Origin: Gemmata obscuriglobus
GTDB taxonomy: Bacteria > Planctomycetota > Planctomycetia > Gemmatales > Gemmataceae
NCBI RefSeq assembly: GCF_008065095.1
Contig: NZ_CP042911.1
Location: forward strand, 540,001-572,000
Reading direction: 5' to 3'
DNA: 32,000 nucleotides
The notes beneath the pieces were generated by a model that did no database searches, was not told where the DNA came from, and worked only from the letters and a program-made list of their open reading frames with translations. The position numbers and the translations under genes were made by a program. The stretch's first letter is position 1, and each line of letters begins with the position of its first letter. This document shows positions 6,971-20,281 of the stretch, one piece after another.

Positions 6971-7363
6971 GTGAGTGCCACCTTCAGCGCGGTGTTCGAG
7001 TCGGCGGTTCTGCCCCACGGCACGCTCGGCGGCGACAACCCGCAACTGCTTCGCACGCGCGAATCGCTCGACCGGCTGGCGACGAAGAACGGGCTGACGT
7101 CGCTGCTGGCGTTCGAGAGCTACGCCCCCGAGGACGTGGCCGGACTCATAGACGACGAACGGCTCGCCGAACTGCCGCCCGCGGTGTGGTTCCCGGCAGC
7201 GGCCGGGGTCGCGGCGGTCAACGCTCTGTACGAGTACCTGGAATCGCACCCCGGAGCGTTCTCCCGGCCGGCCGAGGTGATGGCCGAGTTGTCCAACCTG
7301 GGAGACGAACTGGAAGCGGCGGCCCGCGCCGGCGTCCGCTTCCGACTCGCGGTCGTGATGTGA
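6971..7363 (+). CDS. Hypothetical protein
   Basis: GTG start 18 nt after the fabH stop. 130 aa, GC3-rich, not low-complexity. No family recognised. Confidence 0.5.
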   Translation: MSATFSAVFESAVLPHGTLGGDNPQLLRTRESLDRLATKNGLTSLLAFESYAPEDVAGLIDDERLAELPPAVWFPAAAGVAAVNALYEYLESHPGAFSRPAEVMAELSNLGDELEAAARAGVRFRLAVVM

Positions 7364-7839
7364 CGCATCCGGCCGCTCCTCTCGTTCGATCGGCAATGCC
7401 GCTCGCCTCGATCGATTCGCGTGTAAGGTATTACTCAGCAAGGCTTTGTCCTCTGATCCGTGTCTGTTCTCGCTACTCACATTTGGCTGACCGTAACCCT
7501 GTTCCTGGGGCTCAAAGGCCGGGATTCGGTGGTAGCAGCACCCCAGCGAACGGCCAGCTCCTGACCAGTCGGACGGTAGCGAATGTCCAGTCGGCGCCCC
7601 GTCGGTGGTAGCCCGTGCGGTCGTGTAACCCCCGTTACAGCGCCGGCAAGTCGGAAGCGACGACGCCTCCGGACAGGCTTCAACCACCGGCTCTGCCGCG
7701 GTCCGTACCGCACAACGCTTCCAACCGGTGCCGAACGCTCAGGTCAGCAGCCCGCTCTTGACCGCTACCCTTTGCGCCGCGAACGGACACCCGACGTAGC
7801 CGGAAGCCATACACGGCTGATGGCAAGCGGTGGATCTGG

Positions 7840-7868
7840 TTATTGCTCCCCCAACCCGTCGCTATCAT
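7840..7868 (+). promoter_or_regulatory. Candidate sigma70-like promoter for the KAP/NACHT pair
   Basis: TTATTG (7840-7845), a 17-nt spacer, then TATCAT (7863-7868), 22 nt upstream of the ATG at 7890. The short leader contains GGAGGAGGAG. Pattern match only; promoter rules in this lineage are poorly known. Confidence 0.2.
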
Positions 7869-7889
7869 GCACGGGGAGGAGGAGCACGA

Positions 7890-9299
7890 ATGTCTGCGCC
7901 CACATTCCTGTCCGACGAGCCTACACTGACAGACCTGCTCACCCGCATGGACCTCGTCCGGCAGGTAGGCGACACGGCCGCCGGTTGCCACCCACCGTGC
8001 GTGCTCGGCGTGCATGGCGACTGGGGTGCCGGAAAGACCAGCTTCCTCCACATCCTCCACCACTACCTCACCGGCACCTGTCCACCGCTCGACGGGCTCG
8101 ACCGTGGTGTGGTGATGACCGAGCATTGGCCGCAAGAATGGCAACCGAAAGACCACGTTGCGGTAATCTGGTTCGAGGCGTGGCGGTATCAACACGAGCC
8201 CGCGCCAGTAGTCGCGCTGCTGCACGAGATTCGCGCGCAACTGCCTACCGCCAGCAAACTGTTCGATTCGGCCAAGAAGATTGGCGAGGTGTCGGTCAAG
8301 TCCGCACTGTTTGCGATGGAGTGGCTCACCAAGCGGGTCGGGGTGCAGGCTTCCAAGGTACAAGAGATCGGCGAGAAATGGGAGAAAGAACATTTCGCCG
8401 AGCAACTTCCCTCGCACACGCTCCGCCAGTTCCTTGAAGACACCCTGCGCCGCCTGCTCCCGCAGGTCAACAGCGCCCGCGTGGTGGTGCTGATCGACGA
8501 CCTGGACCGGTGCGAGGCTCAGGCCGCGTATCGGTTGCTGGAGGGCATCAAAATCTATCTGAACCTGCCGAATTGCGTGTTTGTATTGGGCGTTAATCAG
8601 ACAGTAATTGAGCAGAGCTTGGCAGAGCAGATGGCCAAAGAAAAGGCCGAGAAACCGAGCGATGAAGCCCGGCTCCGTGCCCGCGACTACATGGACAAGA
8701 TCTGCAAGAATTATTGGCACTTGCCTGCGTGCGCCAATTTTGAGGCGCTCGTGAACCGGTGGCTCCGGGACGCCGGCGTGGCCGATTTGGCAGCGAAAGA
8801 CGGGCAGAAACTTGCGCCGGGCACGCTGGGGTTACTGATTCAGCAGCACAAGTGTCTGCCAGCGAACCCGCGACGGATCAAATCGTTCGTGAACACCTTG
8901 GCACGGTTCCTCGCGCACGCCGCCCGGTCCGGTTCGTTGGACACCCCTGTGCCCGAGTTGTGTGTAGTGCTCGCGTACCTGCACCAGTTTAACCCAGAAC
9001 TGTATCGAGTGCTGGAATGGCACGGCCAAGAGTTTTTTAACCTCATCGCGCAGTGGTGTGAGAACCCCGGGATAACGGCTACTCACGACCTGTTCAAGGA
9101 TCTGAAGCCAGCGGACGTGCCGGGTGCCGCTGCTGCGGCGCCGACGCCCGGCGCCGCAGCGTTCCCGTCCACGTTTCCGGACCCAGCTCGGGGAAACGTA
9201 TTCCGCATCCAGTCGCTTGTCCGGTTCCTGAAGAGCCAAGCGTCGCCCGGTCTCACCACCGACATTTTTAAGCAGTGCCTGATCCGGGGGGCTGTATGA
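7890..9299 (+). CDS. KAP-family P-loop NTPase (soluble; no TM insert)
   Basis: ATG at 7890 with a GGAGGAGGAG RBS. Walker A is GVHGDWGAGKTSF. FEAWRYQ box. Walker B is VVVLIDDLDRCE followed by LLEGIKIYLNLPNCVFVLGVN. YMDKICKNYWHLP and NPRRIKSFVNT are present. These are the hallmark blocks of KAP NTPases (Pfam PF07693). No long hydrophobic segment lies between Walker A and B. Confidence 0.9.
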   Translation: MSAPTFLSDEPTLTDLLTRMDLVRQVGDTAAGCHPPCVLGVHGDWGAGKTSFLHILHHYLTGTCPPLDGLDRGVVMTEHWPQEWQPKDHVAVIWFEAWRYQHEPAPVVALLHEIRAQLPTASKLFDSAKKIGEVSVKSALFAMEWLTKRVGVQASKVQEIGEKWEKEHFAEQLPSHTLRQFLEDTLRRLLPQVNSARVVVLIDDLDRCEAQAAYRLLEGIKIYLNLPNCVFVLGVNQTVIEQSLAEQMAKEKAEKPSDEARLRARDYMDKICKNYWHLPACANFEALVNRWLRDAGVADLAAKDGQKLAPGTLGLLIQQHKCLPANPRRIKSFVNTLARFLAHAARSGSLDTPVPELCVVLAYLHQFNPELYRVLEWHGQEFFNLIAQWCENPGITATHDLFKDLKPADVPGAAAAAPTPGAAAFPSTFPDPARGNVFRIQSLVRFLKSQASPGLTTDIFKQCLIRGAV

Positions 9300-12187
9300 A
9301 CACGCGCAGAACCGCAACCCGGCCGGACCTGCCGGACCCGAACAACGACCCGCGGTTGCTCGCGTACCTGCGGTCGGTGAACGACTGGCACGGGTACATG
9401 CGTTTCCTTGGGTTGCCGCACCTGCACGAAACCCCGGATGAGCCACTGTCGCGGTTGTTCGTGGAGCCTTACGTTCACGGTGCGTACCACCGCGCCGATG
9501 AGCCCACGAAAGCGTGGGAAAAGGGGCGGCACCGGCTGATCGACCTGTTCGATGCGAAGAACCCGAATGTCGTACTGTTGGGCGACCCCGGTGCCGGCAA
9601 ATCGACGCTATTGAACTGGGTAGCGTGGAACTTTACCCGCTGGGATGGGGGAGAGTGGCTGGACAAGTTCGGTCCAATGGTGCCGATTCCACTCGTAATC
9701 CGCGAACTGGCTGTTACCCGCGACATCACCTGGAACTCGTTGTGTGACAAGTTTCTGGAGCATGGCGTCGCGAAGGACAAGCTCACCCGTACTGAGTTCG
9801 ATGCAATATTTGCACGTGGGCAGGCGTTCGTACTGGTGGACGGGTTGGATGAACTGTCCGATCTGGAGGTACGAAAGGCATTGAGGGCAGCAATTGCTGA
9901 GGGCATCGCGCGAGCACAATTTCCGCGGATTAATAAGGACAGGCATCTGCCACCCTGGCTTCTAACCTCGCGCATAGTCGGATACGACGAGGTACCATAC
10001 GACGTCCCCACGGATTGGTCCTCACCTGAGCAGGATGCCGATTCAGAAGAGAGCGTCACTCGATCAGCCGAGACGCTCTCTGGACGGACGAACGTACTGT
10101 TGGCACCGGCCCGAGGGCTGAGCGGAGAATTAATGGTTCCAATGCGTCGAGCGTATTGCTGCCCGTTCGACGACAGACAGGTAGATCAGTTTGCACGAAC
10201 GTGGTTCATGGCGAGAGAGACTAAAGGTACGACCGAAGGTACACGCCTTGCAAGCGAGTTCCTCAGCCGGCTGCGATCTGAAGGAGGGCCACTTGCGTTG
10301 GCTCGAATTCCGAACCTACTCACGCTGTTCGCGCTGGTGTACAAGGTGCAACTTGACCTGCCCCATGGTCGGGCGAAACTGTACGACAAAGTTGCCGAAG
10401 CATACCTGGAGTCGATCGACAAGTCACGCGGATTTCTCCCCAGATTTACCCGTGACCGGATGGAAATGTGGCTAGCGTTCGTCGCATTCCACCTCCAAAC
10501 CCGCCGTGCCGCGAACGCAAAGCAAAGAAGCCGCCAGCAAGCGCGGGAAATCCTTATCGGACGAGAAGAACTGCTCAAGCTTCTCGTCGATGAGATGCCA
10601 AAAGTGGGTGGCGCCCCGAGCCGCTCCGAGGCAGAGCAATTCCTTGATTATGTTGCTCGGCGTAGCGGGCTCTTGCTACCCAGGGGCGAGGGGCGATATG
10701 CGTTCATGCATTTGTCATTCCAAGAGTATTTTGCCGCTCGATGCCTTGAGAATCAAATTGCCTCTCCAAAGTGGGTGCGAGGCCGCGATCTGTACCCAGG
10801 CACATCGCGCGACTCGCTGAACGACTATGCCGATAGTGCGGCGTGGACTGAAACGATGCTACTTTTGTTCGAGCGATTGAGTGAGAGGCCGCAGTGGGCT
10901 GAGGAGTTGCGAGAAGCGCTGTTCGGTCCCCGGTATGAGCTACCCAATGATGACACGGTTTCAGAATCGCGAGTACGACTGCTAGCGGAAATACTGATCG
11001 ACCCCTACACTGGGTTGGAATCTCACGAACGCGAGCGAGATTTGCTGACAATCATTGGCTGGATGTTGCACAGCCAACAGCGAGAGCCCTCCAAAAAGCG
11101 GCACGAAAACGCTCTGCCAGTTATTCTCCGGCGCTCAGGGTTCGATCCCGACAAACGCCTTGAGATGCTCTGGACCCAAATACGCCGAGGACTATCTCTT
11201 CGACGTCTTGTGTTGAGCAAAACAGATATAGCTGATCTGTCCCCTCTAGCACCCCTTACGGCGTTAGAGGAGCTGGATCTGAGCGGCTGTGCGGGGGTAT
11301 CGGACCTGTCCCCGCTGGCCAATCTCACCGCCTTACGGTTCCTGGACCTGAGCGGCTGCGCGGGGGGGGCAGACCTGTCCCCGCTGGCCAATCTCACCGC
11401 CTTACGGTTCCTGGACCTGAGCGGCTGCGCGGGGGTGTCGGACCTGGCCCCGCTGGCCAACCTCACGGCGTTAGAGGGCCTGAACCTGCGCGGCTGCGCG
11501 GGGGTGTCGGACCTGTCCCCGCTGGCCAACCTCACGGGATTGCGGCACCTGAACCTGAGCGGCTGTGCGGGGTGGGCGGACCTGTCCCCGCTGGCCAACC
11601 TCACGGGATTGCGGCACCTGAACCTGAACGGCTGCACGGGGGTGTCGGACCTGTCCCCGCTAGCACCCCTTACGGCGTTAGAGGAGCTGGACCTGAGCGG
11701 CTGTGCGGGGGTATCGGACCTGTCCCCGCTGGCCAACCTCACGGCGTTAGAGGGCCTGGACCTGAGTGGCTGCGCGGGGGTGTCAGACCTGTCCCCGCTG
11801 GCACCACACACCGCCTTACGGTTCCTGGACCTGAGCGGCTGTGCGGGGGTGTCGTGCCTGTCCCCACTGGCACCACACACCGCCTTACGGTTCCTGGACC
11901 TGAGCGGCTGTGCGGGTGTGTCGGACCTGTCCCCGCTGGCCAACCTCACGGCGTTAGAGGACCTGGACCTGAGCGGCTGCGCGGGTGTGTCGGACCTGTC
12001 CCCGCTGGCCAACCTCACGGCGTTAGAAGGCCTGGACCTGAGTGGCTGCACGGGGGTGTTGGACCTGTCCCCGCTGGCACCACTCACCGCCCTACAGTTC
12101 CTGGACCTGGGCGGCTGCGCAAGTGCATTAAGTATCCCTGACGAGCTACAGCGCCGTGGTGTTGTGATAATGAGGCCATCGGCGTAG
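9296..12187 (+). CDS. NACHT-family STAND NTPase with C-terminal leucine-rich repeats (NLR-like architecture)
   Basis: ATG at 9296 overlaps the KAP stop (ATGA, 9296-9299). Walker A is VVLLGDPGAGKSTLLNW (about 9581-9607). Walker B is FVLVDGLDEL. Sensor-1-like motif LLTSR. CCPFDDRQVDQFARTWF block. Helical middle region. Then one degenerate and twelve full 23-aa LRR units (LxxLxLsGCaGVsDLSPLAnLTa). Confidence 0.9.
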   Translation: MNTRRTATRPDLPDPNNDPRLLAYLRSVNDWHGYMRFLGLPHLHETPDEPLSRLFVEPYVHGAYHRADEPTKAWEKGRHRLIDLFDAKNPNVVLLGDPGAGKSTLLNWVAWNFTRWDGGEWLDKFGPMVPIPLVIRELAVTRDITWNSLCDKFLEHGVAKDKLTRTEFDAIFARGQAFVLVDGLDELSDLEVRKALRAAIAEGIARAQFPRINKDRHLPPWLLTSRIVGYDEVPYDVPTDWSSPEQDADSEESVTRSAETLSGRTNVLLAPARGLSGELMVPMRRAYCCPFDDRQVDQFARTWFMARETKGTTEGTRLASEFLSRLRSEGGPLALARIPNLLTLFALVYKVQLDLPHGRAKLYDKVAEAYLESIDKSRGFLPRFTRDRMEMWLAFVAFHLQTRRAANAKQRSRQQAREILIGREELLKLLVDEMPKVGGAPSRSEAEQFLDYVARRSGLLLPRGEGRYAFMHLSFQEYFAARCLENQIASPKWVRGRDLYPGTSRDSLNDYADSAAWTETMLLLFERLSERPQWAEELREALFGPRYELPNDDTVSESRVRLLAEILIDPYTGLESHERERDLLTIIGWMLHSQQREPSKKRHENALPVILRRSGFDPDKRLEMLWTQIRRGLSLRRLVLSKTDIADLSPLAPLTALEELDLSGCAGVSDLSPLANLTALRFLDLSGCAGGADLSPLANLTALRFLDLSGCAGVSDLAPLANLTALEGLNLRGCAGVSDLSPLANLTGLRHLNLSGCAGWADLSPLANLTGLRHLNLNGCTGVSDLSPLAPLTALEELDLSGCAGVSDLSPLANLTALEGLDLSGCAGVSDLSPLAPHTALRFLDLSGCAGVSCLSPLAPHTALRFLDLSGCAGVSDLSPLANLTALEDLDLSGCAGVSDLSPLANLTALEGLDLSGCTGVLDLSPLAPLTALQFLDLGGCASALSIPDELQRRGVVIMRPSA
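11198..12130 (+). repeat. Tandem 69-bp coding repeats (LRR cassettes) inside the NACHT gene
   Basis: Twelve full units start at 11264 with an exact 69-nt period (11264, 11333, ... 12023). A degenerate unit lies at each end. Long stretches are identical between units. Confidence 0.9.
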
Positions 12188-12453
12188 TACTTTGCAAAGT
12201 GGTAGAAGGTGTGCTGGACCGCACATACCGCGCAACGCGCCGAACTCAGTTTTCACCACGTCCCTGGCAGGCCACTTCCGTGTTTCACAATGTGCGTGGG
12301 TTTGGGGCACCCCAGGCCTGCGGGCGCCGGCGGCTCTCGGCCGGCGCCCACAGGAGACGGGATAATTAAGTGGCCCAATCTGAGGCGTGGAATGGCCCGG
12401 CAGGATAGGACCTGTGGAGCGCGGGGCCGTCGCTGCCTCAACCCGGAGCGGAG

Positions 12454-13236
12454 TTACGGCTTGGGGGACACGTCGAAGTCGGTGGGCTTCAGCTCGGTGG
12501 TCGGACCGGCGATCTCGATCGGGTCGCCGGCGCGGCCCTTTACCCCGCCGCGGAGGCCGTTCTCGTGCCAGTACGCGATGCGGAACTTGCCCACGGGGGC
12601 GTTCTTGATCTCGAAGTTCCCGTTCTCGTCGGTGACCGCGTAGTACGGGTGATCGAACACGCGCACATAGCCGACCATCCACGGGTGAACGGAGCACTTG
12701 TAGGGGATTGGTGGGGATTCTTTTACCAGCGCGTTCGGCATCTTCCAGTCGGTCTGCTTGGCGATGTTCGGGTTGTGGGACCCATTGTTGCCGCTTTCCC
12801 AGTAGAAGTTGTGCGCCACCGGGGACGGATTCTTCACCACCAGCGTGTCGCCCACCCGGGCCACGGTGACGCGCTTCACGAACACGCAGCACGGTTGGTC
12901 GATCACCACTTCCGCCGGCTTCCGCTTGGCGTCATCCGGGTGGATCTGCTGCGGCGTGAACTCGGCGGTCAGTTTGGCGTCGTCCGGGCGCAGGTACACG
13001 ACCACGTTCTTGATGCCCCGGTTCTTCGGGTTCACCAGCACCGACTCGTCGAGCAATTGTCCCTTGCTCAGGCAGTGCTCTTTGTCCTGGGTGACGTTGA
13101 GCGTACCGGGCTTCGGCAGGTTCGCGTCCTGTGGGAACACGACCCGGCCTTTCACCGTGGCCCACTTGTCTTTGTCGTCCGCGCCCGCAACGGCCGCGAG
13201 CGCGCAGCACCACACGCACGACATGAGAAGTCGCAT
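12454..13236 (-). CDS. Secreted cupredoxin-like protein with a C-terminal beta-sandwich (carboxypeptidase-regulatory-like) region
   Basis: ATG at 13236 (MRLLMSCVWCCALAAVAGA signal). PVAHNF and YKCSVHPWMVGYVRV give a His...Cys-x2-His-x2-Met pattern like the amicyanin-type blue-copper site. This is followed by FDHPYYAVTDENGNFEIKNAPVGKFRIAYWHE. The track ORF (to 14700) is an artefactual upstream extension. Confidence 0.8.
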   Translation of the reverse strand: MRLLMSCVWCCALAAVAGADDKDKWATVKGRVVFPQDANLPKPGTLNVTQDKEHCLSKGQLLDESVLVNPKNRGIKNVVVYLRPDDAKLTAEFTPQQIHPDDAKRKPAEVVIDQPCCVFVKRVTVARVGDTLVVKNPSPVAHNFYWESGNNGSHNPNIAKQTDWKMPNALVKESPPIPYKCSVHPWMVGYVRVFDHPYYAVTDENGNFEIKNAPVGKFRIAYWHENGLRGGVKGRAGDPIEIAGPTTELKPTDFDVSPKP

Positions 13237-13268
13237 CGGAGCACCTCGGAAATCAGGAACGGGGAGGG

Positions 13269-14837
13269 TTACGGAGTCGGCCAGTCGTCGCTCTCGAACT
13301 CGATCGGGCCGAGTTCGATGGGGCCGCTCCCGCCGTCGGGAACGGTGAGTTTTGCGCCGAGTCGGCTCGCGGCGCGGTAGCCGGCAACCTCGTGCCACAC
13401 GACAAGGCGCCACGCGCCCGCGGGCACGCCCTTCAGCTCGAACCGCCCGTCGGCGCCCGTGACGGCGAAGTACGGGTGGTCGAACGCCCACACGCAGCCG
13501 CGCATCCACGGGTAGATGTCCGAGCGGTACACGTCCGGGACGCGCAGGGCCGGGAGCGGCTTGGCAGTGTGCGCCACGCCCTTTCCGAGCAGCACGTTGA
13601 AGTCGCGGGCGCCGTCGTCGGTCGGGGCGTAGTGGACGTTGGTCGGCACCGGGAGCCGGTTCTCGAACACCACCGCGTCGCCGGCCCGGGCCGCAACCAC
13701 GCGGGGGCGGAACTGCCCGGCCGCCGCGATTACCGCGTGCGTCTGCGGCCTCGCGCCGGCGAGCGCAGGGTGAACCCGCTCGGCCGGGAACTCGGCCCGG
13801 CGGTCGGTCGAGTCCGGTCGCAGCCAGACGACAGCGTCCGCGATCCCGCGGTTGCCCGCGTTCACGCGGACGCCCTCGTCGAACAGAGGGGCGAACGGCT
13901 CCCACACGCTCGCGTCCTTGAGCGCCGCCGTCGCCAGGGCCGTCGGGTTCGGCGCCGCGTGCCCCTTCGGGAACACGACTCGGCCCGACACGGTCGCCCA
14001 CGGAACGCGCTCGGCGGTGTGCGGGGCCACTTCCGCGGGGGCCGTGGCCTGCGCGGAAGCGGTCGGCGCGGCGTCGCTCGCGAACCCGTGCGCCAGCCCG
14101 CCGACCGCGAGCGCCACCGAGGTCAGTAGCGCGGCCGCCTTCAGCCCGACTCCCCGGACCAGCACCTCGTTCGCGAGTACCGTCGCCGCCGGAGACGGCT
14201 TCAGTGCCGGGACCGCGGCCCGCGCCGGCGCCCCGAGTCCGCCCACGAGCAGCCCCGCCCCGAGCGTCACGCCCCGGCGGGCGAGGCGCGAGCGCAGGAG
14301 TTCCTTGCCGCTTTCGAGTCGGCGGCGCAGGGTGCTGACGCTCCACCCCAGTTCGCGCGCCGCCTCGTCCTGGGTGCGCTCTTCGAGGAAGCACGCGACC
14401 AGCGCCGCCCGCATCTCCTCGGGCATCGTTCCCAGCTCTTCGTCGAGGACGCACAGGAGGTCGCTGAAATCGCTGCCCGGGGCGCCCGCTTCCGCCGCCG
14501 GCTGAGCGGCGCGGGCCTCGCGCCGCTCGCGCCGGTGCTCGTGCCGGCGGGCGGCCGACCCGACCCGCCGCGCGGTCCCGAACAGCCACCCGCCGACGGA
14601 CGCCGCCTCGACCGCCTTCTGCGGCGCGCGGGCGAGTACCAGGAACACGGCCTGGAACGCGTCCTCGGCGAGGTGGGCGTCGCGGACCGCCCGGCGGCAC
14701 ACGCCGAACACGAGGCGGCCGTGCCGCTTCACGAGCTGCTCGAACGCGTCCTCGTCGTGCTGCTCCGCGAACCGCGCCAGCAGCGTGCGGTCGTCGAGCG
14801 CGAGGAGCGGGTTCAAAAACGGGGTGCGAGCGGACAT
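13269..14837 (-). CDS. ECF (sigma-70 family) sigma factor fused to hydrophobic segment(s) and a cupredoxin-like C-terminal domain
   Basis: Region 2: HGRLVFGVCRRAVRDAHLAEDAFQAVFLVLAR. Region 4: TQDEAARELGWSVSTLRRRLESGKELLRSRLARRG. Hydrophobic stretches VTLGAGLLVGGLGAPA and AAALLTSVALAVGGLAHGF. The C-terminal 250 aa are paralogous to the product of 12454..13236 (WATVSGRVVFP, NRGIADAVVWLRPD, PWMRGCVWAFDHPYFAVTGADGRFELKGVPAG). Confidence 0.85.
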   Translation of the reverse strand: MSARTPFLNPLLALDDRTLLARFAEQHDEDAFEQLVKRHGRLVFGVCRRAVRDAHLAEDAFQAVFLVLARAPQKAVEAASVGGWLFGTARRVGSAARRHEHRRERREARAAQPAAEAGAPGSDFSDLLCVLDEELGTMPEEMRAALVACFLEERTQDEAARELGWSVSTLRRRLESGKELLRSRLARRGVTLGAGLLVGGLGAPARAAVPALKPSPAATVLANEVLVRGVGLKAAALLTSVALAVGGLAHGFASDAAPTASAQATAPAEVAPHTAERVPWATVSGRVVFPKGHAAPNPTALATAALKDASVWEPFAPLFDEGVRVNAGNRGIADAVVWLRPDSTDRRAEFPAERVHPALAGARPQTHAVIAAAGQFRPRVVAARAGDAVVFENRLPVPTNVHYAPTDDGARDFNVLLGKGVAHTAKPLPALRVPDVYRSDIYPWMRGCVWAFDHPYFAVTGADGRFELKGVPAGAWRLVVWHEVAGYRAASRLGAKLTVPDGGSGPIELGPIEFESDDWPTP

Positions 14838-14912: not shown

Positions 14913-15128
14913 AAGCACGGAAGCAAAGGCAGATTGGCCGCAAAGAAGCACGGGAGCAAAGGCAGATTGGCCACAAAAAAGCACAAAGGGCACAAAAGAA
15001 AACCAAAGGCCAAAGCAGAAGAAGTGTTTTGAACTCACTCTTTTGTCTTGGTCTTCTGTCTTCTTTTGTGCCCTTTGTGCTTTTTTGTGGCCAATCTGCC
15101 TTTGCTCCCGTGCTTCTTTGCGGCCAAT
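14913..15128. repeat. REP/MITE-like palindromic element, family A (core aagcacaaagggcacaaaagaaaacc)
   Basis: 14933..15000 is the exact reverse complement of 15061..15128 (68 bp, 60-bp spacer). An extra direct copy of the aagcacgg(a/g)agcaaaggcagattggcc module lies at 14913-14939. The element lies between the manA stop and the ECF sigma start. Confidence 0.9.
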
Positions 15129-17087: not shown

Positions 17088-17161
17088 AGCGGTGTGGAGC
17101 CGAATGGTAAGGCGACGCCCTGTTAAGGCGTAATTTGTAGGTTCGATTCCTACCACCGCTG
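17088..17161 (+). tRNA. tRNA-Asn(GTT), non-canonical D region
   Basis: Acceptor AGCGGTG/CACCGCT. Anticodon stem ACGCC/GGCGT with loop CTGTTAA. T-arm GTAGG-TTCGATT-CCTAC. Only a 3-bp D stem (GCC/GGC) after a 4-nt linker. No encoded CCA. Confidence 0.6.
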
Positions 17162-17174
17162 CTCGCTGGTCGCT

Positions 17175-17248
17175 ACGGGGATGGGCTAACGGTATGCCTC
17201 CGGGCTTTGAACCCGGCCACCATGAAGGTTCGACTCCTTCTCCCCGTG
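17175..17248 (+). tRNA. tRNA-Gln(TTG)
   Basis: Acceptor ACGGGGA/TCCCCGT. D stem GGC/GCC. Anticodon stem CCGGG/CCCGG with loop CTTTGAA. T-arm GAAGG-TTCGACT-CCTTC. Unusual 7-nt variable region. No CCA. Confidence 0.65.
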
Positions 17249-17269
17249 CTCGGCGCGGTCGGGACCTGT

Positions 17270-17341
17270 TCCGGGGTAGTTCAACGGTAGCAACGCCGCG
17301 CTCTGAACGCGGAGATGTTGGTTCGATTCCAGCCCCCGGAA
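17270..17341 (+). tRNA. tRNA-Gln(CTG)
   Basis: Acceptor TCCGGGG/CCCCGGA (U1:A72). U8. Anticodon stem CCGCG/CGCGG with loop CTCTGAA. T-arm GTTGG-TTCGATT-CCAGC. No CCA. Confidence 0.85.
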
Positions 17342-17347
17342 CCTCTC

Positions 17348-17456
17348 GAATGCGGAGTGCGGAATTCAGAACGGGGAATTAAAAGCAACGGATTGAAATC
17401 ATTGCTGTGGTTGCTTTGGATTATATTCCGCATTCCGGATTCCGCACTCCGCATTC
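17348..17456. repeat. REP-like nested palindrome between tRNA genes
   Basis: gaatgcggagtgcggaat (17348-17365) is the exact reverse complement of 17439-17456. There is an inner aaagcaac...gttgcttt pair and an extra attccgcattcc half-copy. Confidence 0.85.
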
Positions 17457-17463
17457 AAAACAC

Positions 17464-17536
17464 GCCTCGCACGCTTCAACGGTGAAGCAGCCGGCTTTTA
17501 ACCGGTATACGCAGGGTTCGATCCCCTGGCGGGGCA
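17464..17536 (+). tRNA. tRNA-Lys(TTT)
   Basis: Acceptor GCCTCGC/GCGGGGC (one G:U pair). D stem GCTT/AAGC. Anticodon stem GCCGG/CCGGT with loop CTTTTAA. T-arm CAGGG-TTCGATC-CCCTG. Discriminator A. Position 8 is A rather than U. Confidence 0.75.
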
Positions 17537-17550
17537 CTGGTTCGTAACGT

Positions 17551-17623
17551 CCCGGCGAAGCTAACTCGGTAGAAGCGCCGTGCTGAAAACGCGGAGGAGC
17601 TGGTTCGACCCCAGCCACCGGGA
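17551..17623 (+). tRNA. tRNA-Phe(GAA)
   Basis: Acceptor CCCGGCG/CACCGGG with one C:A mismatch. Anticodon stem CCGTG/CGCGG with loop CTGAAAA. T-arm GCTGG-TTCGACC-CCAGC. Discriminator A. Positions 8-9 are AA. Confidence 0.7.
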
Positions 17624-17692
17624 CCTGTTTTGAAGTTCGGAACTCGGAACGGATCGCGCGGTCCTTGTCGCGATTCCGTGCTCGAAAAGACT

Positions 17693-17764
17693 GCGTTCGT
17701 GAGGTTAGTGGTAGCCTGCTTGGTTCCCAACCAGGATGCGCGGGTTCGAGTCCCGCCGAACGCT
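17693..17764 (+). tRNA. tRNA-Gly(CCC)
   Basis: Acceptor GCGTTCG/CGAACGC. U8. D stem AGGT/GCCT. Anticodon stem CTTGG/CCAGG with loop TTCCCAA. T-arm GCGGG-TTCGAGT-CCCGC. Discriminator U. Confidence 0.9.
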
Positions 17765-17781
17765 CTGCCCGCGCCCGACAT

Positions 17782-17875
17782 CGGGGGCGTACACACGTAG
17801 CTCAATAGTAGAGCACTCGCTTTGGGAGCGGGAAGTTGCCGGTGCGAATCCGGTCGTAACTTTCAACCGCCCCCG
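17782..17875 (+). tRNA. tRNA-Pro(TGG)-like element with a disrupted acceptor stem (possible pseudogene or tRNA-like RNA)
   Basis: Intact D-arm (TA GCTC AATAGTA GAGC). Anticodon arm CTCGC-TTTGGGA-GCGGG. T-arm GCCGG-TGCGAAT-CCGGT. The 7-nt acceptor positions (ACACACG/CGTAACT) pair at only about 4 of 7. Instead, an outer perfect 8-bp helix CGGGGGCG (17782-17789)/CGCCCCCG (17868-17875) closes the structure. Confidence 0.35.
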
Positions 17876-17894
17876 GCACTCGCGCGGGCAACTT

Positions 17895-17966
17895 CAGGAC
17901 GTGGGCCATTGGCTGGCCGCGAGTCTTGGGAACTCGTTCAAGTCGGTTCGATTCCGGCCGTCCTGA
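17895..17966 (+). tRNA. tRNA-Pro(TGG)
   Basis: Acceptor CAGGACG/CGTCCTG (C1:G72). U8. D stem GGCC/GGCC. Anticodon stem CGAGT/ACTCG with loop CTTGGGA (G37). T-arm GTCGG-TTCGATT-CCGGC. Discriminator A. Confidence 0.9.
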
Positions 17967-17970
17967 TCGC

Positions 17971-18041
17971 GCACCGTCCGACGGTTTATCGGCACCGGGC
18001 CTCCGAAGTCTGGTCGGCTGGTTCGACTCCAGCACGGTGTA
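17971..18041 (+). tRNA. tRNA-Arg(CCG), non-canonical D region
   Basis: Acceptor GCACCGT/ACGGTGT. Anticodon stem CGGGC/GTCTG (two G:U pairs) with loop CTCCGAA. T-arm GCTGG-TTCGACT-CCAGC. The best D helix (CCGA/TCGG) starts directly after the acceptor with no 8-9 linker. 71 nt. Confidence 0.6.
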
Positions 18042-18049
18042 CTGTTCGC

Positions 18050-18122
18050 GGGTCGGAAGCTGATACGGAATAGCGGCGGGTTGTTAACCCGCGTGTAGTG
18101 GGTTCGATTCCCACCCGGCCCT
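18050..18122 (+). tRNA. tRNA-Asn(GTT)
   Basis: Acceptor GGGTCGG/CCGGCCC (one G:U pair). D stem GCTG/TAGC. Anticodon stem GCGGG/CCCGC with loop TTGTTAA. T-arm GTGGG-TTCGATT-CCCAC. Positions 8-9 are AA. Discriminator U. Confidence 0.75.
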
Positions 18123-18174
18123 CTGCCACATCTCGCCCACAGTCCGGTTGCCGGTGTCTGCTTTGGATTTGGCT

Positions 18175-18360: not shown

Positions 18361-19884
18361 TCACACCTTCGCCAGTTCCTCGTCCACGAGGCCGCGCACC
18401 ACCTCGTTCGACACGCCCTTGTTGGCCTTCATCACCTCGCCGACGATCTTCATCTTGGCCGCGTCCTTGCCGCTCTTGAAGTCCGCGACCGCCTTCGGGT
18501 TGTTCGCGATCGCCTGCCTCACGGACTCCCGCAGCGCGTCCGCGTTGACCTCTTTGATGCCCGCTCTCACCTTCGCGGCGGCGAGGTCCAGGCCCTCATC
18601 CACCATCAGCTTGAACACGTCGCGGCGGTCCTGCGAGTTGGTCGGGCCGGTCTTCACGAAGTCCGCGAACTTCGCGGCGTCGAACGGGAACTCCGTGATC
18701 TCCTCCTTGCGCTCGGTCAGCGCGGGGTAGACGAGGTCGCTCATCCGGTTCGCGGCGGCCTTGCCGTCGTTCAGCGCCGTCGCCACCGCCTCGAAGTACG
18801 CCACGGTGGGACGCCCCTTCGCGGTCAGCACCTGCGCGTCGTAAGACGACAGCCCGTACTGCGCCACCAGCCGCTTGCGCTGCTCCTGCGGCAGCTCGCC
18901 CATCGCGGCGCGGGCCTCGGCGAGTTGCGCCTCGGTCACCACCACCGGCACCAGGTCCGGTTCGGGGAAGTACCGGTAGTCGGCCGCATCTTCCTTGTGC
19001 CGCTGGACCACCGTGACGCCCTTCGCGTCGTCCCAGCCGGCGGTCGTCTTCAGCATCTTGCCGAAGCGGAACGTGCCCGCGGTGTCCTTCTGGTACTCCT
19101 CGTAGTGCCGCTTCGCCTCGTAGGTGATGGCCCGGCCGACGGCGCGGAAGCTGTTCAGGTTCTTGATCTCCACCAGCGGCGTGGCGTGGTAGTCCTTGCC
19201 GGTCTCGGCGTGCTCCTTGCCGATCACCGGGACGTGGATGTTCACGTTCGCGTCGCACCGCAGCGAGCCCTCCTGCATCTCGCAGTCGGACACGCCGATC
19301 TCGCGCAGCATCAGCCGGATCTCTTCCAGGTACGCGATCGCCTCCTCGGGCGAGGTCATGTCGGGGTGCGACACGATCTCCAGCAGCGGGGTGCCGGTGC
19401 GGTTGAGGTCCACGAGCGTGTCGCCGCCCTTGCCGCTCTCGTCGTGCAGGTTCTTGCCGGCGTCCTCTTCGAGGTGCGCGCGGATGATCCCGATCTTCCG
19501 GCCCACGAACTCCTTCTTGGGGTCCTTCGCGATGTTGATTTCGAGCCACCCGTCGTGGCTGAACGGCAGGTCGTACTGCGAGATCTGGTAGTTCTTCGGC
19601 AGGTCCGGGTAGTAGTAGTTCTTGCGGTCCCACTTGGTGAAGCCCGGCGCCTGCCCGGGGTGCCGGGCGATCTGGCAGTTGAGCGCCAGCGCCGCCCGGA
19701 GGGCGAGCTTGAACGCCTGCTCGTTCATCACCGGCAGTGACCCGGGCATCCCGAGGCACACCGGGCACGTGGCGGTGTTCGGGGGCAGTCCGAACTTGTT
19801 GAGGCACCCGCAGAACAGTTTGGTCTTGGTGAGGAGCTGGACGTGGACCTCCAGCCCGATGACGATCTTGTACGGCTCGGCCAT
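18361..19884 (-). CDS. gatB: Asp-tRNA(Asn)/Glu-tRNA(Gln) amidotransferase subunit B
   Basis: ATG at 19884 (MAEPYKIVIGLEVHVQLLTKTKLFCGC). CPVCLGMPGSLPV, YYYPDLPKNYQISQ, IGIIRAHLEEDAGK, NRTGTPLLEIVS, RCDANVN and YRYFPEPDL are present. The track ORF extends artefactually to 20085. Confidence 0.95.
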   Translation of the reverse strand: MAEPYKIVIGLEVHVQLLTKTKLFCGCLNKFGLPPNTATCPVCLGMPGSLPVMNEQAFKLALRAALALNCQIARHPGQAPGFTKWDRKNYYYPDLPKNYQISQYDLPFSHDGWLEINIAKDPKKEFVGRKIGIIRAHLEEDAGKNLHDESGKGGDTLVDLNRTGTPLLEIVSHPDMTSPEEAIAYLEEIRLMLREIGVSDCEMQEGSLRCDANVNIHVPVIGKEHAETGKDYHATPLVEIKNLNSFRAVGRAITYEAKRHYEEYQKDTAGTFRFGKMLKTTAGWDDAKGVTVVQRHKEDAADYRYFPEPDLVPVVVTEAQLAEARAAMGELPQEQRKRLVAQYGLSSYDAQVLTAKGRPTVAYFEAVATALNDGKAAANRMSDLVYPALTERKEEITEFPFDAAKFADFVKTGPTNSQDRRDVFKLMVDEGLDLAAAKVRAGIKEVNADALRESVRQAIANNPKAVADFKSGKDAAKMKIVGEVMKANKGVSNEVVRGLVDEELAKV

Positions 19885-19996
19885 GTGCGACGGCTCCCCA
19901 AACTCTTCCGGGTGCGGATGAAAGGGAATTGTAGCGGCCCGCGCCGGAAGGAGAACGGACCGGCCCCGCCGGTTCGCCCCGCGGCCGGAAACGCCA

Positions 19997-20048
19997 TTTT
20001 TGACAGGATCAACGGGATGGTGCTCGATCCTGTCGATCCCGTTAAAAA
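19997..20048. repeat. Cluster of four GATCCYGTY-type 9-mers (two reverse, two forward) flanked by T5 and A5
   Basis: gacaggatc (20002-20010), aacgggatg (20011-20019), gatcctgtc (20026-20034) and gatcccgtt (20035-20043). The order is A B ... A' B', i.e. crossed (pseudoknot-like) complementarity. Lies 113-164 nt upstream of the gatB start. Confidence 0.7.
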
Positions 20049-20081
20049 CGATTCGGGACCCGCCGGCGCTGCTTCCTGGTC

Positions 20082-20193
20082 TCAAGTCACAGGTCGGCAG
20101 GTCTCAAGTCACCAAGGTCGCTCGCGATGCTTGTGACTTGGGACTTGGGACTTGGGAGCCGCGACCTGTGACTTGAGACTTGCCGACCTGTGA
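20082..20193. repeat. REP-like imperfect palindrome built from gtgacttg / gacttgg motifs
   Basis: 20087-20112 pairs with 20168-20193 (26 nt, 1 mismatch). The centre holds three tandem gacttgg heptamers (about 20133-20157). Further gtgacttg copies run to 20211. Lies in the gatB / M28 divergent intergenic region. Confidence 0.8.
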
Positions 20194-20281
20194 TCTGTGA
20201 CTTGTGACTTGCGACTACTGGAGTTCGCATAATAGCCGCGTACCTCTCCGCCTGCCGCACCTCACCGGAAGGACGCACGCC

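What the first reader, a model, noticed from the sequence alone, without database searches (positions are those of the whole stretch)
11198..12130. LRR sensor made of twelve near-identical 69-bp cassettes whose differences cluster at the LxxLxL x-positions
Seen in sequence: the units start at 11264 with an exact 69-nt period. At protein level the scaffold L..L.L.GC.GV.DLSPLA.LT. is almost invariant. Residues 2-3 switch among EE, EG, ED, RF, RH and QF. Residue 5 is D/N and residue 7 is S/R/N/G. Neighbouring units are often identical pairs (RF-RF, RH-RH, RF-RF), which suggests recent 69- or 138-bp duplications. Established: in LRR proteins the x positions of LxxLxL line the concave ligand-binding face, and long perfect tandem repeats are prone to recombination and slippage. 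Inference: this is a rapidly evolving, possibly copy-number-variable recognition surface, as in plant NLRs or lamprey VLRs.
Basis: partly seen in the sequence, partly recalled or inferred. Interest (0 to 1): 0.7.

Follow-up and report, generated by a model that had tools for sequence, protein, structure and literature searches.

The report
Shuffling LRR sensor of bacterial NLR
The repeat array is the C-terminal leucine-rich-repeat sensor of a bacterial NLR-like (NACHT) ATPase in Gemmata obscuriglobus, always encoded next to a KAP ATPase gene; across its family the repeats stay alike except at the positions of the predicted binding face, much as in plant and fungal immune receptors.

Summary
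Window 11264-12091 holds twelve in-frame 69-bp units with no indels. A degenerate 22-aa unit (11198-11263) precedes them and a cap unit (12092-12160) follows. The units are 70-96% identical at DNA level, so "near-identical" holds only for the protein scaffold.

The array is the C-terminus of a 963-aa NACHT-LRR protein of Gemmata obscuriglobus (9296-12187). Its start codon overlaps the stop of a soluble, RdrA-like KAP ATPase gene (7890-9299). The pair sits on a low-GC island. KAP lay directly upstream in every one of 16 independent relative loci with enough upstream sequence. Relatives with a fused N-terminal effector domain (DUF4062 NADase or Metallophos) lacked KAP in the two loci examined.

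Amino-acid variation peaks at unit positions 2, 3 and 5, on or beside the predicted beta-strand. In this array alone dN/dS there is about 1. In ten arrays of the family, dN at these positions exceeds scaffold dS every time (1.2- to 12.7-fold). Alleles whose N-terminal 624-653 residues are 99.8-100% identical differ in unit number and order.

Most likely this is a fast-evolving recognition surface of an uncatalogued two-gene defence module. The plant/fungal NLR analogy holds; the VLR analogy does not. Function and variability in Gemmata itself are untested.

The parts
7890..9299 (+). KAP-family P-loop NTPase gene (469 aa from ATG 7890; the mechanical ORF starts at GTG 7830). Soluble, RdrA-like; the conserved upstream partner of the NACHT-LRR gene.
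   Evidence: Pfam KAP_NTPase 5.5e-32. PADLOC PDC-S20, QatA and PifA-like domain hits. No hydrophobic segment (maximum Kyte-Doolittle 1.29). AF2 pLDDT 86.9; best PDB folds are RADAR RdrA rings at TMq 0.42-0.50. Present directly upstream in 16 of 16 independent relative loci with enough upstream sequence.
9296..12187 (+). NACHT-LRR gene (963 aa; identical to the 963-aa cluster member listed under WP_109571341.1, Gemmata obscuriglobus). Its ATG overlaps the KAP stop codon (ATGA).
   Evidence: ORF. ATGA overlap read directly. Cluster look-up. Pfam NACHT plus LRR families. AF2 pLDDT 86.4, pTM 0.82.
9581..9607 (+). Walker A motif GDPGAGKST (residues 96-104).
   Evidence: Sequence. G96, P98, G99, G101, K102 and T104 are invariant in 74 homologues.
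9839..9853 (+). Walker B with the NACHT signature D[GAS]hDE (DGLDE, residues 182-186).
   Evidence: D182, G183, D185 and E186 are invariant. The signature definition is quoted from Kibby et al..
11198..11263 (+). First, degenerate 22-residue LRR unit (LRRLVLSKTDIADLSPLAPLTA).
   Evidence: Model strand at residues 637-639.
11264..12091 (+). Twelve in-register 69-bp (23-codon) LRR units with scaffold LxxLxLxGCxGVxDLSPLAxLTx.
   Evidence: TRF. Unit table and diversity. Junction-block analysis. Model strands every 23 residues from 659-661.
12092..12187 (+). 13th cap unit (LQFLDLGGCASALSIPDELQRRG, 12092-12160), then an 8-residue tail and the stop codon. The cap motif is conserved in the 23-residue relatives P0002, P0003 and P0004.
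   Evidence: P0002, P0003 and P0004 end in similar cap sequences.
11362..11369 (+). G8 homopolymer inside unit 2; it creates the GGA variant of the usual GVS.
8000..11250 (.). Low-GC stretch (54-63% GC, against about 67-77% in the flanks) covering the KAP gene and the NACHT part. The LRR array itself returns to 67-69% GC.
   Evidence: GC3: KAP 0.73, NACHT part 0.64, LRR 0.80; neighbouring genes 0.85-0.98.

Best explanation
The array encodes the C-terminal ligand-sensing LRR solenoid of a cytoplasmic, NLR-like NACHT STAND ATPase. That protein works together with the KAP ATPase encoded immediately upstream, as a horizontally mobile two-gene module. The module is most probably an anti-phage or anti-invader immune system.

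Shown:
- The domain architecture, the operon and its conservation.
- The concerted evolution of repeat scaffolds within each array.
- The concentration of within-array variation at LxxLxLxx positions 2, 3, 5, 7 and 8.
- Unit gain, loss and reordering between nearly identical alleles in relatives.

Inferred:
- Units are duplicated, deleted and recombined by unequal or illegitimate recombination between repeats, which homogenises the scaffold.
- Selection keeps or promotes different residues on the concave face, so binding specificity changes quickly.
- Ligand binding to the LRR releases NACHT autoinhibition and drives oligomerisation.
- The output goes through the KAP ATPase, which occupies the slot that relatives fill with a fused N-terminal DUF4062 NADase or metallophosphoesterase.
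For: Architecture:
- NACHT plus LRR by Pfam. Walker A and the DGLDE signature are invariant.
- The whole-protein AF2 model aligns to NLRC4, NLRP9, NOD2 and NLRP3, and its LRR to InlA and CtRoco.

Operon:
- ATGA overlap between the two genes.
- KAP lies upstream in L001-L005 and L007-L012, in L025-L028, L029-L032 and L033.
- The KAP and NACHT-LRR hit lists share many contigs.

Effector slot:
- Relatives at 37-40% identity carry N-terminal Metallophos or DUF4062. The two loci examined have no KAP gene upstream.
- DUF4062 is described as a TIR-like anti-phage NADase (abstracts listed; text).
- The KAP model is closest to RADAR RdrA.

Mobility and defence context:
- Low-GC island.
- Family spread over Planctomycetota, Verrucomicrobiota, Nitrospirota, Proteobacteria and Acidobacteriota.
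- In L026 the pair lies next to a type III methyltransferase and a GajB-like helicase.

Diversification:
- Within-array entropy is 1.4-1.7 bits at positions 2, 3, 5, 7 and 8, against 0.77 or less elsewhere, in 39 arrays of 22-residue units. Four 23-residue arrays show the same pattern.
- Scaffold identity is 0.88 to an array's own consensus and 0.62 to other arrays' consensus.
- dN(x)/dS(scaffold) is 1.2-12.7 in 10 of 10 arrays, while scaffold dN/dS is 0.14-0.57.
- Pooled counts are N:S = 112:18 at x positions against 67:81 in the scaffold (odds ratio 7.5, p = 7e-13).
- Alleles with N-terminal parts 99.8-100% identical carry 12, 13 or 8 units, or 11 against 13 units in a different order. The 8-unit allele joins two units across only 8 shared nt.
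Against: - No experiment links this family to defence. It matches no PADLOC v2 or NCBIfam system model beyond P-loop-level hits.
- Neither protein has a recognisable toxic effector domain, so the output step is a guess.
- In the Gemmata array the x-position dN/dS is about 1.
- The window's neighbours are housekeeping genes.
- The polymorphic alleles come from short-read metagenome assemblies, which can collapse exact tandem repeats. The 12-versus-13-unit case could be such an artefact.
- dN(x) above dS(scaffold) could partly reflect gene conversion lowering scaffold dS rather than positive selection.
- Concave-face placement rests on the DSSP strand register plus textbook LRR geometry.
Confidence: 0.62

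Rival explanations
1. It is an LRR domain of a NACHT ATPase, but it serves only as an autoinhibitory or scaffolding domain, or binds one conserved host ligand. On this view the x-position variation is relaxed constraint on solvent-exposed residues, and the repeat similarity is simply recent expansion with neutral drift. The module might then be regulatory rather than immune.
For: In the Gemmata array dN/dS at positions 2, 3, 5 and 7 is 1.0, and only 1.2-1.6 against scaffold dS. The per-array Fisher test for this array is p = 0.063. The x-position states are a handful of old unit types, not new mutations. Differences between the youngest duplicates fall in codons 10-16, not at x positions.
Against: Convex and loop positions are also solvent-exposed in LRRs, yet they are held nearly constant within each array while differing between arrays. 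In the two youngest arrays (94-95% nt identity), dN(x) is 5-13 times scaffold dS. The same five positions vary in 43 independent arrays. Relatives carry immune-type effector domains.
Confidence: 0.2
2. It is a programmed diversification system. The array would be rewritten from silent donor cassettes (VLR-like), by a diversity-generating retroelement, or switched on and off by slippage in the G8 tract.
For: Cassette-like mosaic structure with shared junction blocks. A G8 run lies inside unit 2.
Against: There is no second copy of the cassette anywhere in the 32-kb window. A scan of metagenome contigs for the cassette found nothing. The 963-aa protein is recorded on three contigs under three GenBank accessions. 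Variation is not adenine-directed, and no template repeat is present.
Confidence: 0.04
3. It is a secreted or surface internalin-like adhesin, as one database name suggests ("Internalin-A precursor").
For: Strong sequence and fold similarity of the LRR part to InlA (1e-49). NCBIfam internalin_A gives 4e-53, but far below its cut-off (181 against 1600 bits).
Against: The LRR is the C-terminus of a 963-aa protein with a NACHT NTPase. The N-terminus (MNTRRTATRPDLPDP...) has no signal-peptide-like hydrophobic stretch, and no hydrophobic segment occurs anywhere (maximum Kyte-Doolittle 1.49). The gene is translationally coupled to a cytoplasmic ATPase gene.
Confidence: 0.02
4. The repeat number or order in the window is an assembly artefact of a repetitive region.
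For: Tandem repeats are a classic source of misassembly. An older draft entry ends 11 residues early (P0001, 952 aa).
Against: The 963-aa protein is recorded on three contigs, the longest 9.03 Mb, under three separate GenBank accessions. The older entry has the same 13 units. The reading frame is intact with zero indels over 897 nt. The units carry enough differences (3-21 nt) to be ordered uniquely.
Confidence: 0.03

Closest known systems
Bacterial NACHT (bNACHT) anti-phage proteins, especially the LRR-bearing bNACHT16 of Vibrio campbellii (Kibby et al., bioRxiv 10.1101/2022.07.19.500537)
   Same: NACHT module with the D[GAS]hDE Walker B signature and a C-terminal 'antigen-receptor-type' repeat domain, here LRR. 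The whole-protein model resembles NLRC4 and NOD2.
   Different: There is no N-terminal effector domain, only about 90 conserved residues before the P-loop. Instead there is an apparently obligate, separately encoded KAP ATPase, which that paper's text never mentions ('KAP' occurs 0 times). No phage-defence phenotype is known for this family.
Fungal NLRs with highly internally conserved WD, ANK or TPR repeats (HET-E/HNWD; Paoletti 2007, PMC1805685; Dyrka 2014, PMC4986451), and the WD/TPR counterparts noted in bacterial NLRs (Dyrka 2020, bioRxiv 10.1101/2020.01.06.895854)
   Same: Repeats inside one gene are far more alike than repeats of orthologues. A few surface positions are hypervariable. 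Repeat number is polymorphic. Repeat reshuffling is the proposed cause and consequence.
   Different: The repeat type here is LRR. Those papers report no LRR in fungal NLRs and say prokaryotic NLRs 'do not display LRR repeats'. The Gemmata array (mean pairwise unit identity 0.80) falls just below their 85% criterion, although several relatives exceed it.
Plant NB-LRR resistance proteins
   Same: A STAND NTPase with a C-terminal LRR, in which the solvent-exposed xxLxLxx residues are the diversifying, specificity-determining positions and unequal crossing-over changes repeat number (established knowledge; introduction of PMC4986451).
   Different: The NTPase is NACHT, not NB-ARC. The repeats are of the 22-23-residue internalin/SDS22-like class and are much more homogeneous. 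Diversity is between strains of haploid bacteria carrying a single copy, not in large paralogous clusters.
RADAR (RdrA/RdrB), Qat (QatA) and PifA: defence systems built on KAP-type ATPases
   Same: The upstream protein is a KAP-family ATPase. Its model is closest to the heptameric RdrA ring, and it matches QatA, PifA and PDC-S20 models at domain level.
   Different: It is about half the size of RdrA. There is no RdrB deaminase and no QatB, QatC or QatD gene nearby. It has no membrane segment, unlike classical KAP proteins. Its partner is a NACHT-LRR protein.
Listeria internalin A and the Chlorobium Roco LRR domain
   Same: Best sequence and fold matches of the repeat domain. Same 22-residue-class LRR, with Cys or Thr where the canonical motif has Asn.
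   Different: Those are an extracellular invasin and a Roc-COR GTPase respectively. Neither has near-identical units nor a NACHT domain.
Lamprey variable lymphocyte receptors
   Same: An LRR concave face used as a variable recognition surface built from cassette-like units.
   Different: VLRs are assembled somatically from flanking donor cassettes. No donor cassettes exist in the window, and the 963-aa protein is recorded on three contigs under three GenBank accessions.

Membership tests
Leucine-rich repeat domain (22-23-residue internalin/SDS22-like class) | Tandem LxxLxLxx(N/C/T)xL units of constant length | tested here: met
   Thirteen units with an exact 23-codon period, LxxLxLxGCxGV. Pfam LRR_4 7.3e-52 with 9 stretches.
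Leucine-rich repeat domain (22-23-residue internalin/SDS22-like class) | Solenoid fold with one short beta-strand per unit on LxxLxL | tested here: met
   AF2 gives pLDDT above 90 across the array, with a strand at unit positions 3-5 in each repeat and a 3-10 turn at positions 16-18. Foldseek to InlA, InlF and CtRoco LRR gives E 1e-18 to 1e-21 and TMt up to 0.81.
NACHT clade of STAND NTPases | Walker A GxxxxGK[ST] and Walker B with the D[GAS]hDE signature | tested here: met
   GDPGAGKST and DGLDE, invariant in 74 homologues. Signature as quoted.
NACHT clade of STAND NTPases | Match to the curated NACHT profile, and an NLR-like NBD-HD-WHD arrangement | tested here: met
   PF05729 scores 28.6 bits against a gathering score of 26.7, which is marginal. 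The whole model aligns to NLRC4 4kxf over about 1100 columns (TMq 0.46), and to NLRP9, NOD2 and NLRP3.
Canonical tripartite NLR (effector-NOD-LRR in one polypeptide) | N-terminal effector or adaptor domain | tested here: not met
   Only about 90 residues precede the P-loop and no Pfam domain is found there. Relatives do have Metallophos or DUF4062 at this position.
bNACHT anti-phage systems (Kibby et al.) | Demonstrated protection against phage that depends on the Walker A lysine | not testable with these tools
   Needs experiments. No PADLOC or NCBIfam system model matches beyond the P-loop.
NLRs with highly internally conserved repeats (Dyrka 2014 criterion) | At least 85% identity between repeats over at least 100 aa | tested here: inconclusive
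   The Gemmata array has mean pairwise unit identity 0.80 at protein level over 276 aa and 0.83 at nt level, just under the threshold. One relative exceeds it (0.92); others reach 0.83.
NLRs with highly internally conserved repeats (Dyrka 2014 criterion) | Hypervariable positions on the ligand-binding face | tested here: met
   Positions 2, 3, 5 and 7 hold 46% of the entropy in this array (p = 0.002). The same positions vary in 43 arrays. dN(x) exceeds dS(scaffold) in 10 of 10 arrays. Face assignment comes from the strand register plus textbook geometry.
NLRs with highly internally conserved repeats (Dyrka 2014 criterion) | Repeat-number polymorphism between close relatives | tested here: inconclusive
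   Met in relatives: 12, 13 or 8 units, and 11 against 13 units, on N-terminal parts that are 99.8-100% identical. For Gemmata there is no close relative (next hit 53%), and the protein is recorded on three contigs under three accessions.
VLR-like or DGR-like programmed diversification | Donor cassettes or a template repeat near the variable array | tested here: not met
   All 12 matches to the unit consensus lie inside the array. Only the 32-kb window could be searched.
RADAR / Qat systems (for the KAP partner) | Adjacent RdrB deaminase, or QatB, QatC and QatD genes | tested here: not met
   In the window and in L025-L033 the gene next to KAP is the NACHT-LRR gene. Other neighbours vary from locus to locus.

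The most novel reading that the evidence does not exclude
KAP plus NACHT-LRR is a widespread, so far uncatalogued two-gene bacterial immune system (at least 468 clusters at 50% identity, spread over several phyla). Its receptor would be a true LRR solenoid that evolves as plant and fungal NLR receptors do: scaffold homogenised by unit shuffling, concave-face residues kept diverse by selection, and unit number polymorphic within populations. A ring-forming KAP ATPase would replace the fused effector. That would make it a bacterial NLR class with bona fide, diversifying LRR sensors, and a natural system for studying how LRR specificity is re-tuned by cassette exchange.
Probability: 0.45. Interest if true: 0.75.

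Novelty: new variant of a known kind. Interest (0 to 1): 0.6.

Why it matters
Bacterial NACHT proteins are known anti-phage sensors, but how their sensor domains keep pace with phages is largely unknown. The literature I could search states that prokaryotic NLRs typically lack LRRs.

This locus is one member of a large NACHT-LRR family that shows the evolutionary signature long known from plant and fungal immune receptors:
- repeats homogenised within each gene;
- a hypervariable concave face;
- gain and loss of whole units.

The family also has an unexpected, strictly linked KAP ATPase partner. If the module proves to be a defence system, three things follow. It would offer a compact, genetically tractable model for LRR specificity evolution. 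It would add a new role for KAP ATPases. It would bear on whether the NOD-LRR pairing arose more than twice.

Tried and rejected
- **Close relatives of the Gemmata gene, to test copy-number polymorphism directly.** The protein search found only the self cluster, then 53% identity. The genome-collection scan returned no Gemmata locus, so the source is apparently masked. An exact-sequence contig look-up of the window protein found nothing. A metagenome scan for the cassette gave 0 hits. The test remains open.
- **Paralogues sharing the cassette.** The search with the LRR part returned only proteins of 578 aa or shorter, at 63% identity or less, and did not even list the self protein. It cannot exclude long paralogues.
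- **GC-biased conversion as a general feature of the arrays.** The LRR has higher GC3 than the NACHT part in Gemmata (0.80-0.84 against 0.63-0.64), but not consistently in 12 other loci. Rejected as a family property.
- **Plasmid carriage.** Only distant NACHT proteins (23-28% identity) were found on plasmids.
- **KAP-NACHT fusion proteins.** Relatives with 160-400-residue N-terminal extensions turned out to carry Metallophos or DUF4062 domains, not KAP.
- **Promoter and terminator scans** of 7300-12600 were uninformative. The RNA fold of the 3' flank was not exceptional (z = -1.7).
- **Literature searches** for a described KAP plus NACHT-LRR system found none. Absence from this library does not prove novelty.
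- **The adhesin ('internalin A precursor') reading** was rejected on architecture.


Full report
**1. What is in the sequence**

Tandem Repeats Finder reports one array at 11254-12120: period 69, 12.6 copies, 84% matches, no indels, score 1035. Read in the frame of the long + strand ORF, the array has three parts:
- a degenerate 22-codon unit at 11198-11263;
- twelve 23-codon units at 11264-12091;
- a 13th cap unit at 12092-12160.

A 35-nt consensus of the constant part matches twelve times, all inside the array, where shuffles give none.

The units are not near-identical as DNA. Pairwise differences run from 3 to 21 of 69 nt, and mean nucleotide identity is 0.83. The 354-aa ORF on the opposite strand (11023-12087) is a by-product of the stop-free repeat.

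**2. What the gene is**

The window is from Gemmata obscuriglobus. The translated ORF is identical to the 952-aa representative of a database cluster over that entry's whole length. The cluster's other member is 963 aa. It is listed under WP_109571341.1, AWM40933.1, QEG25760.1 and VTR99557.1, and is recorded on three contigs, the longest 9.03 Mb.

- Residues 92-210 match Pfam NACHT, and the C-terminal 330 residues match several LRR families.
- Walker A (GDPGAGKST) and the NACHT-type Walker B (DGLDE) are invariant in an alignment of 74 homologues. The motif definition is quoted from Kibby et al..
- An AlphaFold2 model built on that alignment is confident (pLDDT 86.4, pTM 0.82).
- Foldseek aligns the whole chain to autoinhibited NLRC4 (TMq 0.46 over about 1100 columns), and to NLRP9, NOD2 and NLRP3. 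It aligns the LRR part to internalin A, internalin F and the Chlorobium Roco LRR (sequence level).
- About 90 residues precede the P-loop. They are strongly conserved but match no domain.
- No hydrophobic segment exists, so the protein is cytoplasmic. The database name 'Internalin-A precursor' is misleading.

**3. The partner gene**

The ATG at 9296 overlaps the TGA of the upstream gene (ATGA). That gene (7890-9299) encodes a KAP-family P-loop NTPase (Pfam 5.5e-32; PADLOC PDC-S20, QatA and PifA-like).

- It lacks the membrane insertion of classical KAP proteins.
- Its model (pLDDT 86.9) is closest to the ring-forming RdrA ATPase of the RADAR defence system.
- A homologue lies directly upstream of the NACHT-LRR gene in eleven genome loci from five or more phyla (tblastn).
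- The same holds in every metagenomic locus fetched for effector-less members: L025-L028, L029-L032 and L033. The two genes often overlap by 1-4 bp.
- The top hit lists of the two proteins share many contigs.

Relatives in the same NACHT clade (37-40% identity over the module) carry an N-terminal metallophosphoesterase or DUF4062 domain instead. The two such loci examined have no KAP gene. Recent preprints describe DUF4062 as a TIR-like NADase acting in anti-phage systems (abstracts; text). The KAP ATPase therefore occupies the position that an effector takes in related single-gene forms.

**4. Genomic context**

The KAP gene and the NACHT part have 54-63% GC, against roughly 67-77% in the flanks. 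Their GC3 is 0.64-0.73, against 0.85-0.98 for neighbouring genes. This fits horizontal acquisition.

Neighbours in the window are housekeeping genes: FabH-like, an ECF sigma factor, GatB and a tRNA cluster. In L026 the pair sits beside a type III methyltransferase and a GajB-like helicase. In L025 it sits beside an antitoxin-like gene.

The family is sizeable. A full scan of 1.84 billion representatives gives 468 clusters at E <= 1e-30. The family has no model in PADLOC v2 or NCBIfam.

**5. Where the variation lies in this array**

Amino-acid entropy per unit position peaks at position 3 (2.19 bits), then 13, 2, 20, 12, 7 and 5. Positions 2, 3, 5 and 7 hold 46% of the total, and only 19 of 8855 four-position sets do as well. 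In the model the strand covers unit positions 3-5 in every repeat. By standard LRR geometry, x3 and x5 then point into the concave face and x2, x7 and x8 flank it. I could not measure exposure because coordinates are not returned.

Nei-Gojobori counts give:

| Codon class | dN/dS |
|---|---|
| Positions 2, 3, 5, 7 | 1.0 |
| Remaining scaffold codons | 0.33 |
| dN(x) against scaffold dS | 1.2-1.6 |

**6. How the array was built**

Cutting the units in a shifted phase (codons 19-23 of one unit plus codons 1-7 of the next) is more revealing.
- The 36-nt blocks of units 2/3 and 9/10 are identical.
- The blocks of units 5/6, 1/7 and 8/12 match at 35/36.
- Synonymous differences in codons 22-23 travel with the x-position type.
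- Units 10 and 11 have different heads (RF and ED) but share a rare synonymous GGT in an otherwise near-identical constant part.

The array is therefore a mosaic of a few older unit types that have been duplicated in tandem and recombined. Differences between the youngest duplicates lie in codons 10-16.

**7. The family supplies the replication a single array cannot**

- Among the best 120 homologues, 39 arrays of 22-residue units and 4 of 23-residue units have mean unit identity of at least 0.6. Within-array entropy is 1.4-1.7 bits at positions 2, 3, 5, 7 and 8, and 0.77 or less elsewhere.
- Scaffold positions 9-22 are 88% identical to their own array's consensus but 62% identical to other arrays' consensus. 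This is concerted evolution.
- DNA was available for ten arrays. dN at the x positions exceeds scaffold dS in all ten (1.2- to 12.7-fold, highest in the two youngest arrays). Scaffold dN/dS is 0.14-0.57.
- Pooled counts of non-synonymous to synonymous states are 112:18 at x positions and 67:81 in the scaffold (odds ratio 7.5, p = 7e-13).

Gene conversion that lowers scaffold dS could inflate the first ratio. Even so, diversity at the x positions must be protected from that conversion.

**8. Unit-number polymorphism**

Within 90%-identity clusters, alleles differ by whole units.
- P0100, P0266 and P0267 have identical first 653 residues but 12, 13 and 8 units.
- P0037 and P0271 are 99.8% identical over 624 residues but have 11 and 13 units in a different order.

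At DNA level the first set comes from four sibling samples whose flanks are 99.96-99.98% identical. The 13-unit form was assembled twice. The 8-unit form fuses units 7 and 11 across only 8 shared nucleotides, which a de Bruijn assembler would not create. The 12-versus-13 difference is an exact tandem duplicate and could be an assembly collapse.

Unit counts across the family run from 1 to 18 (5th-95th percentile 2-13), with a median of 7. Gemmata's 13-14 units lie near the top. For Gemmata itself no comparison is possible.

**9. Comparison with what is known**

- Bacterial NACHT proteins defend against phage, and some carry LRRs, such as bNACHT16. The architecture is therefore a known kind.
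- The evolutionary regime is the one described for WD, ANK and TPR repeats of fungal NLRs and noted for WD and TPR repeats of bacterial NLRs. Those papers report no LRR examples and state that prokaryotic NLRs typically lack LRRs.
- I found no description of the KAP pairing.
- The VLR analogy fails for lack of donor cassettes.

**10. Verdict**

- The decisive evidence comes from relatives, not from this array.
- An immune function and the role of KAP are inferences.

Noticed in passing
window 11195-12160 versus 9296-11194: Within the low-GC island, the LRR array alone has host-like codon usage (GC3 0.80-0.84, against 0.63-0.64 for the NACHT part of the same gene). Twelve other loci do not show this consistently, so it may reflect turnover of the array inside Gemmata or a replaced C-terminus.
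   Followed up: partly
window 11362-11369: A G8 homopolymer inside LRR unit 2 turns the usual GVS into GGA. It is a possible slippage or frameshift hotspect in the middle of the sensor.
   Followed up: no
P0429, P0486, P0505, P0450 (Metallophos) and P0419, P0424, P0431, P0438, P0475 (DUF4062); loci L035 and L037: Single-gene relatives of the same NACHT clade carry an N-terminal metallophosphoesterase or DUF4062 (TIR-like NADase) domain. The two loci examined lack the KAP gene. P0424 also has near-identical LRR units.
   Followed up: partly
L026 1-11454: In this metagenomic locus the KAP/NACHT-LRR pair lies between a ResIII-like gene plus a type III methyltransferase (PADLOC E = 0) and a GajB/UvrD-like helicase, which is a defence-island setting.
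   Followed up: partly
window 17088-18123: A cluster of eight tRNA genes (Asn, Gln x2, Lys, Phe, Pro, Arg, Asn) lies about 5 kb downstream of the island.
   Followed up: no
window 20130-20216: A heptamer CTTGTGA is repeated about 12 times in the gap between the divergent GatB (18361-20085, minus strand) and M28 peptidase (20204-21907, plus strand) genes.
   Followed up: no
window 14913-14984: A 33-bp tandem duplication (92% match) lies just upstream of the ECF-sigma-like gene that starts at 14837 on the minus strand.
   Followed up: no
window 12454-14837 (minus strand): Two adjacent genes end in similar C-terminal regions. The upstream one (13269-14837) is fused to ECF sigma-70 regions 2 and 4 and has a weak CarboxypepD_reg match. 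Its C-terminal sequence resembles that of the 12454-13260 product, so they look like tandem paralogues.
   Followed up: no
window 12320-12350: A GC-rich perfect hairpin (GGGCGCCGGC ... GCCGGCGCCC) lies about 135 nt after the NACHT-LRR stop codon, with no T-run. It may be a terminator shared with the convergent gene.
   Followed up: partly
P0243, P0244, P0248, P0249 (cluster of P0098; locus L004): Several members of this 90% cluster differ from the 853-aa form by frameshift-like scrambled C-termini inside the LRR array. This could be sequencing error in repeats or genuine pseudogenisation.
   Followed up: no
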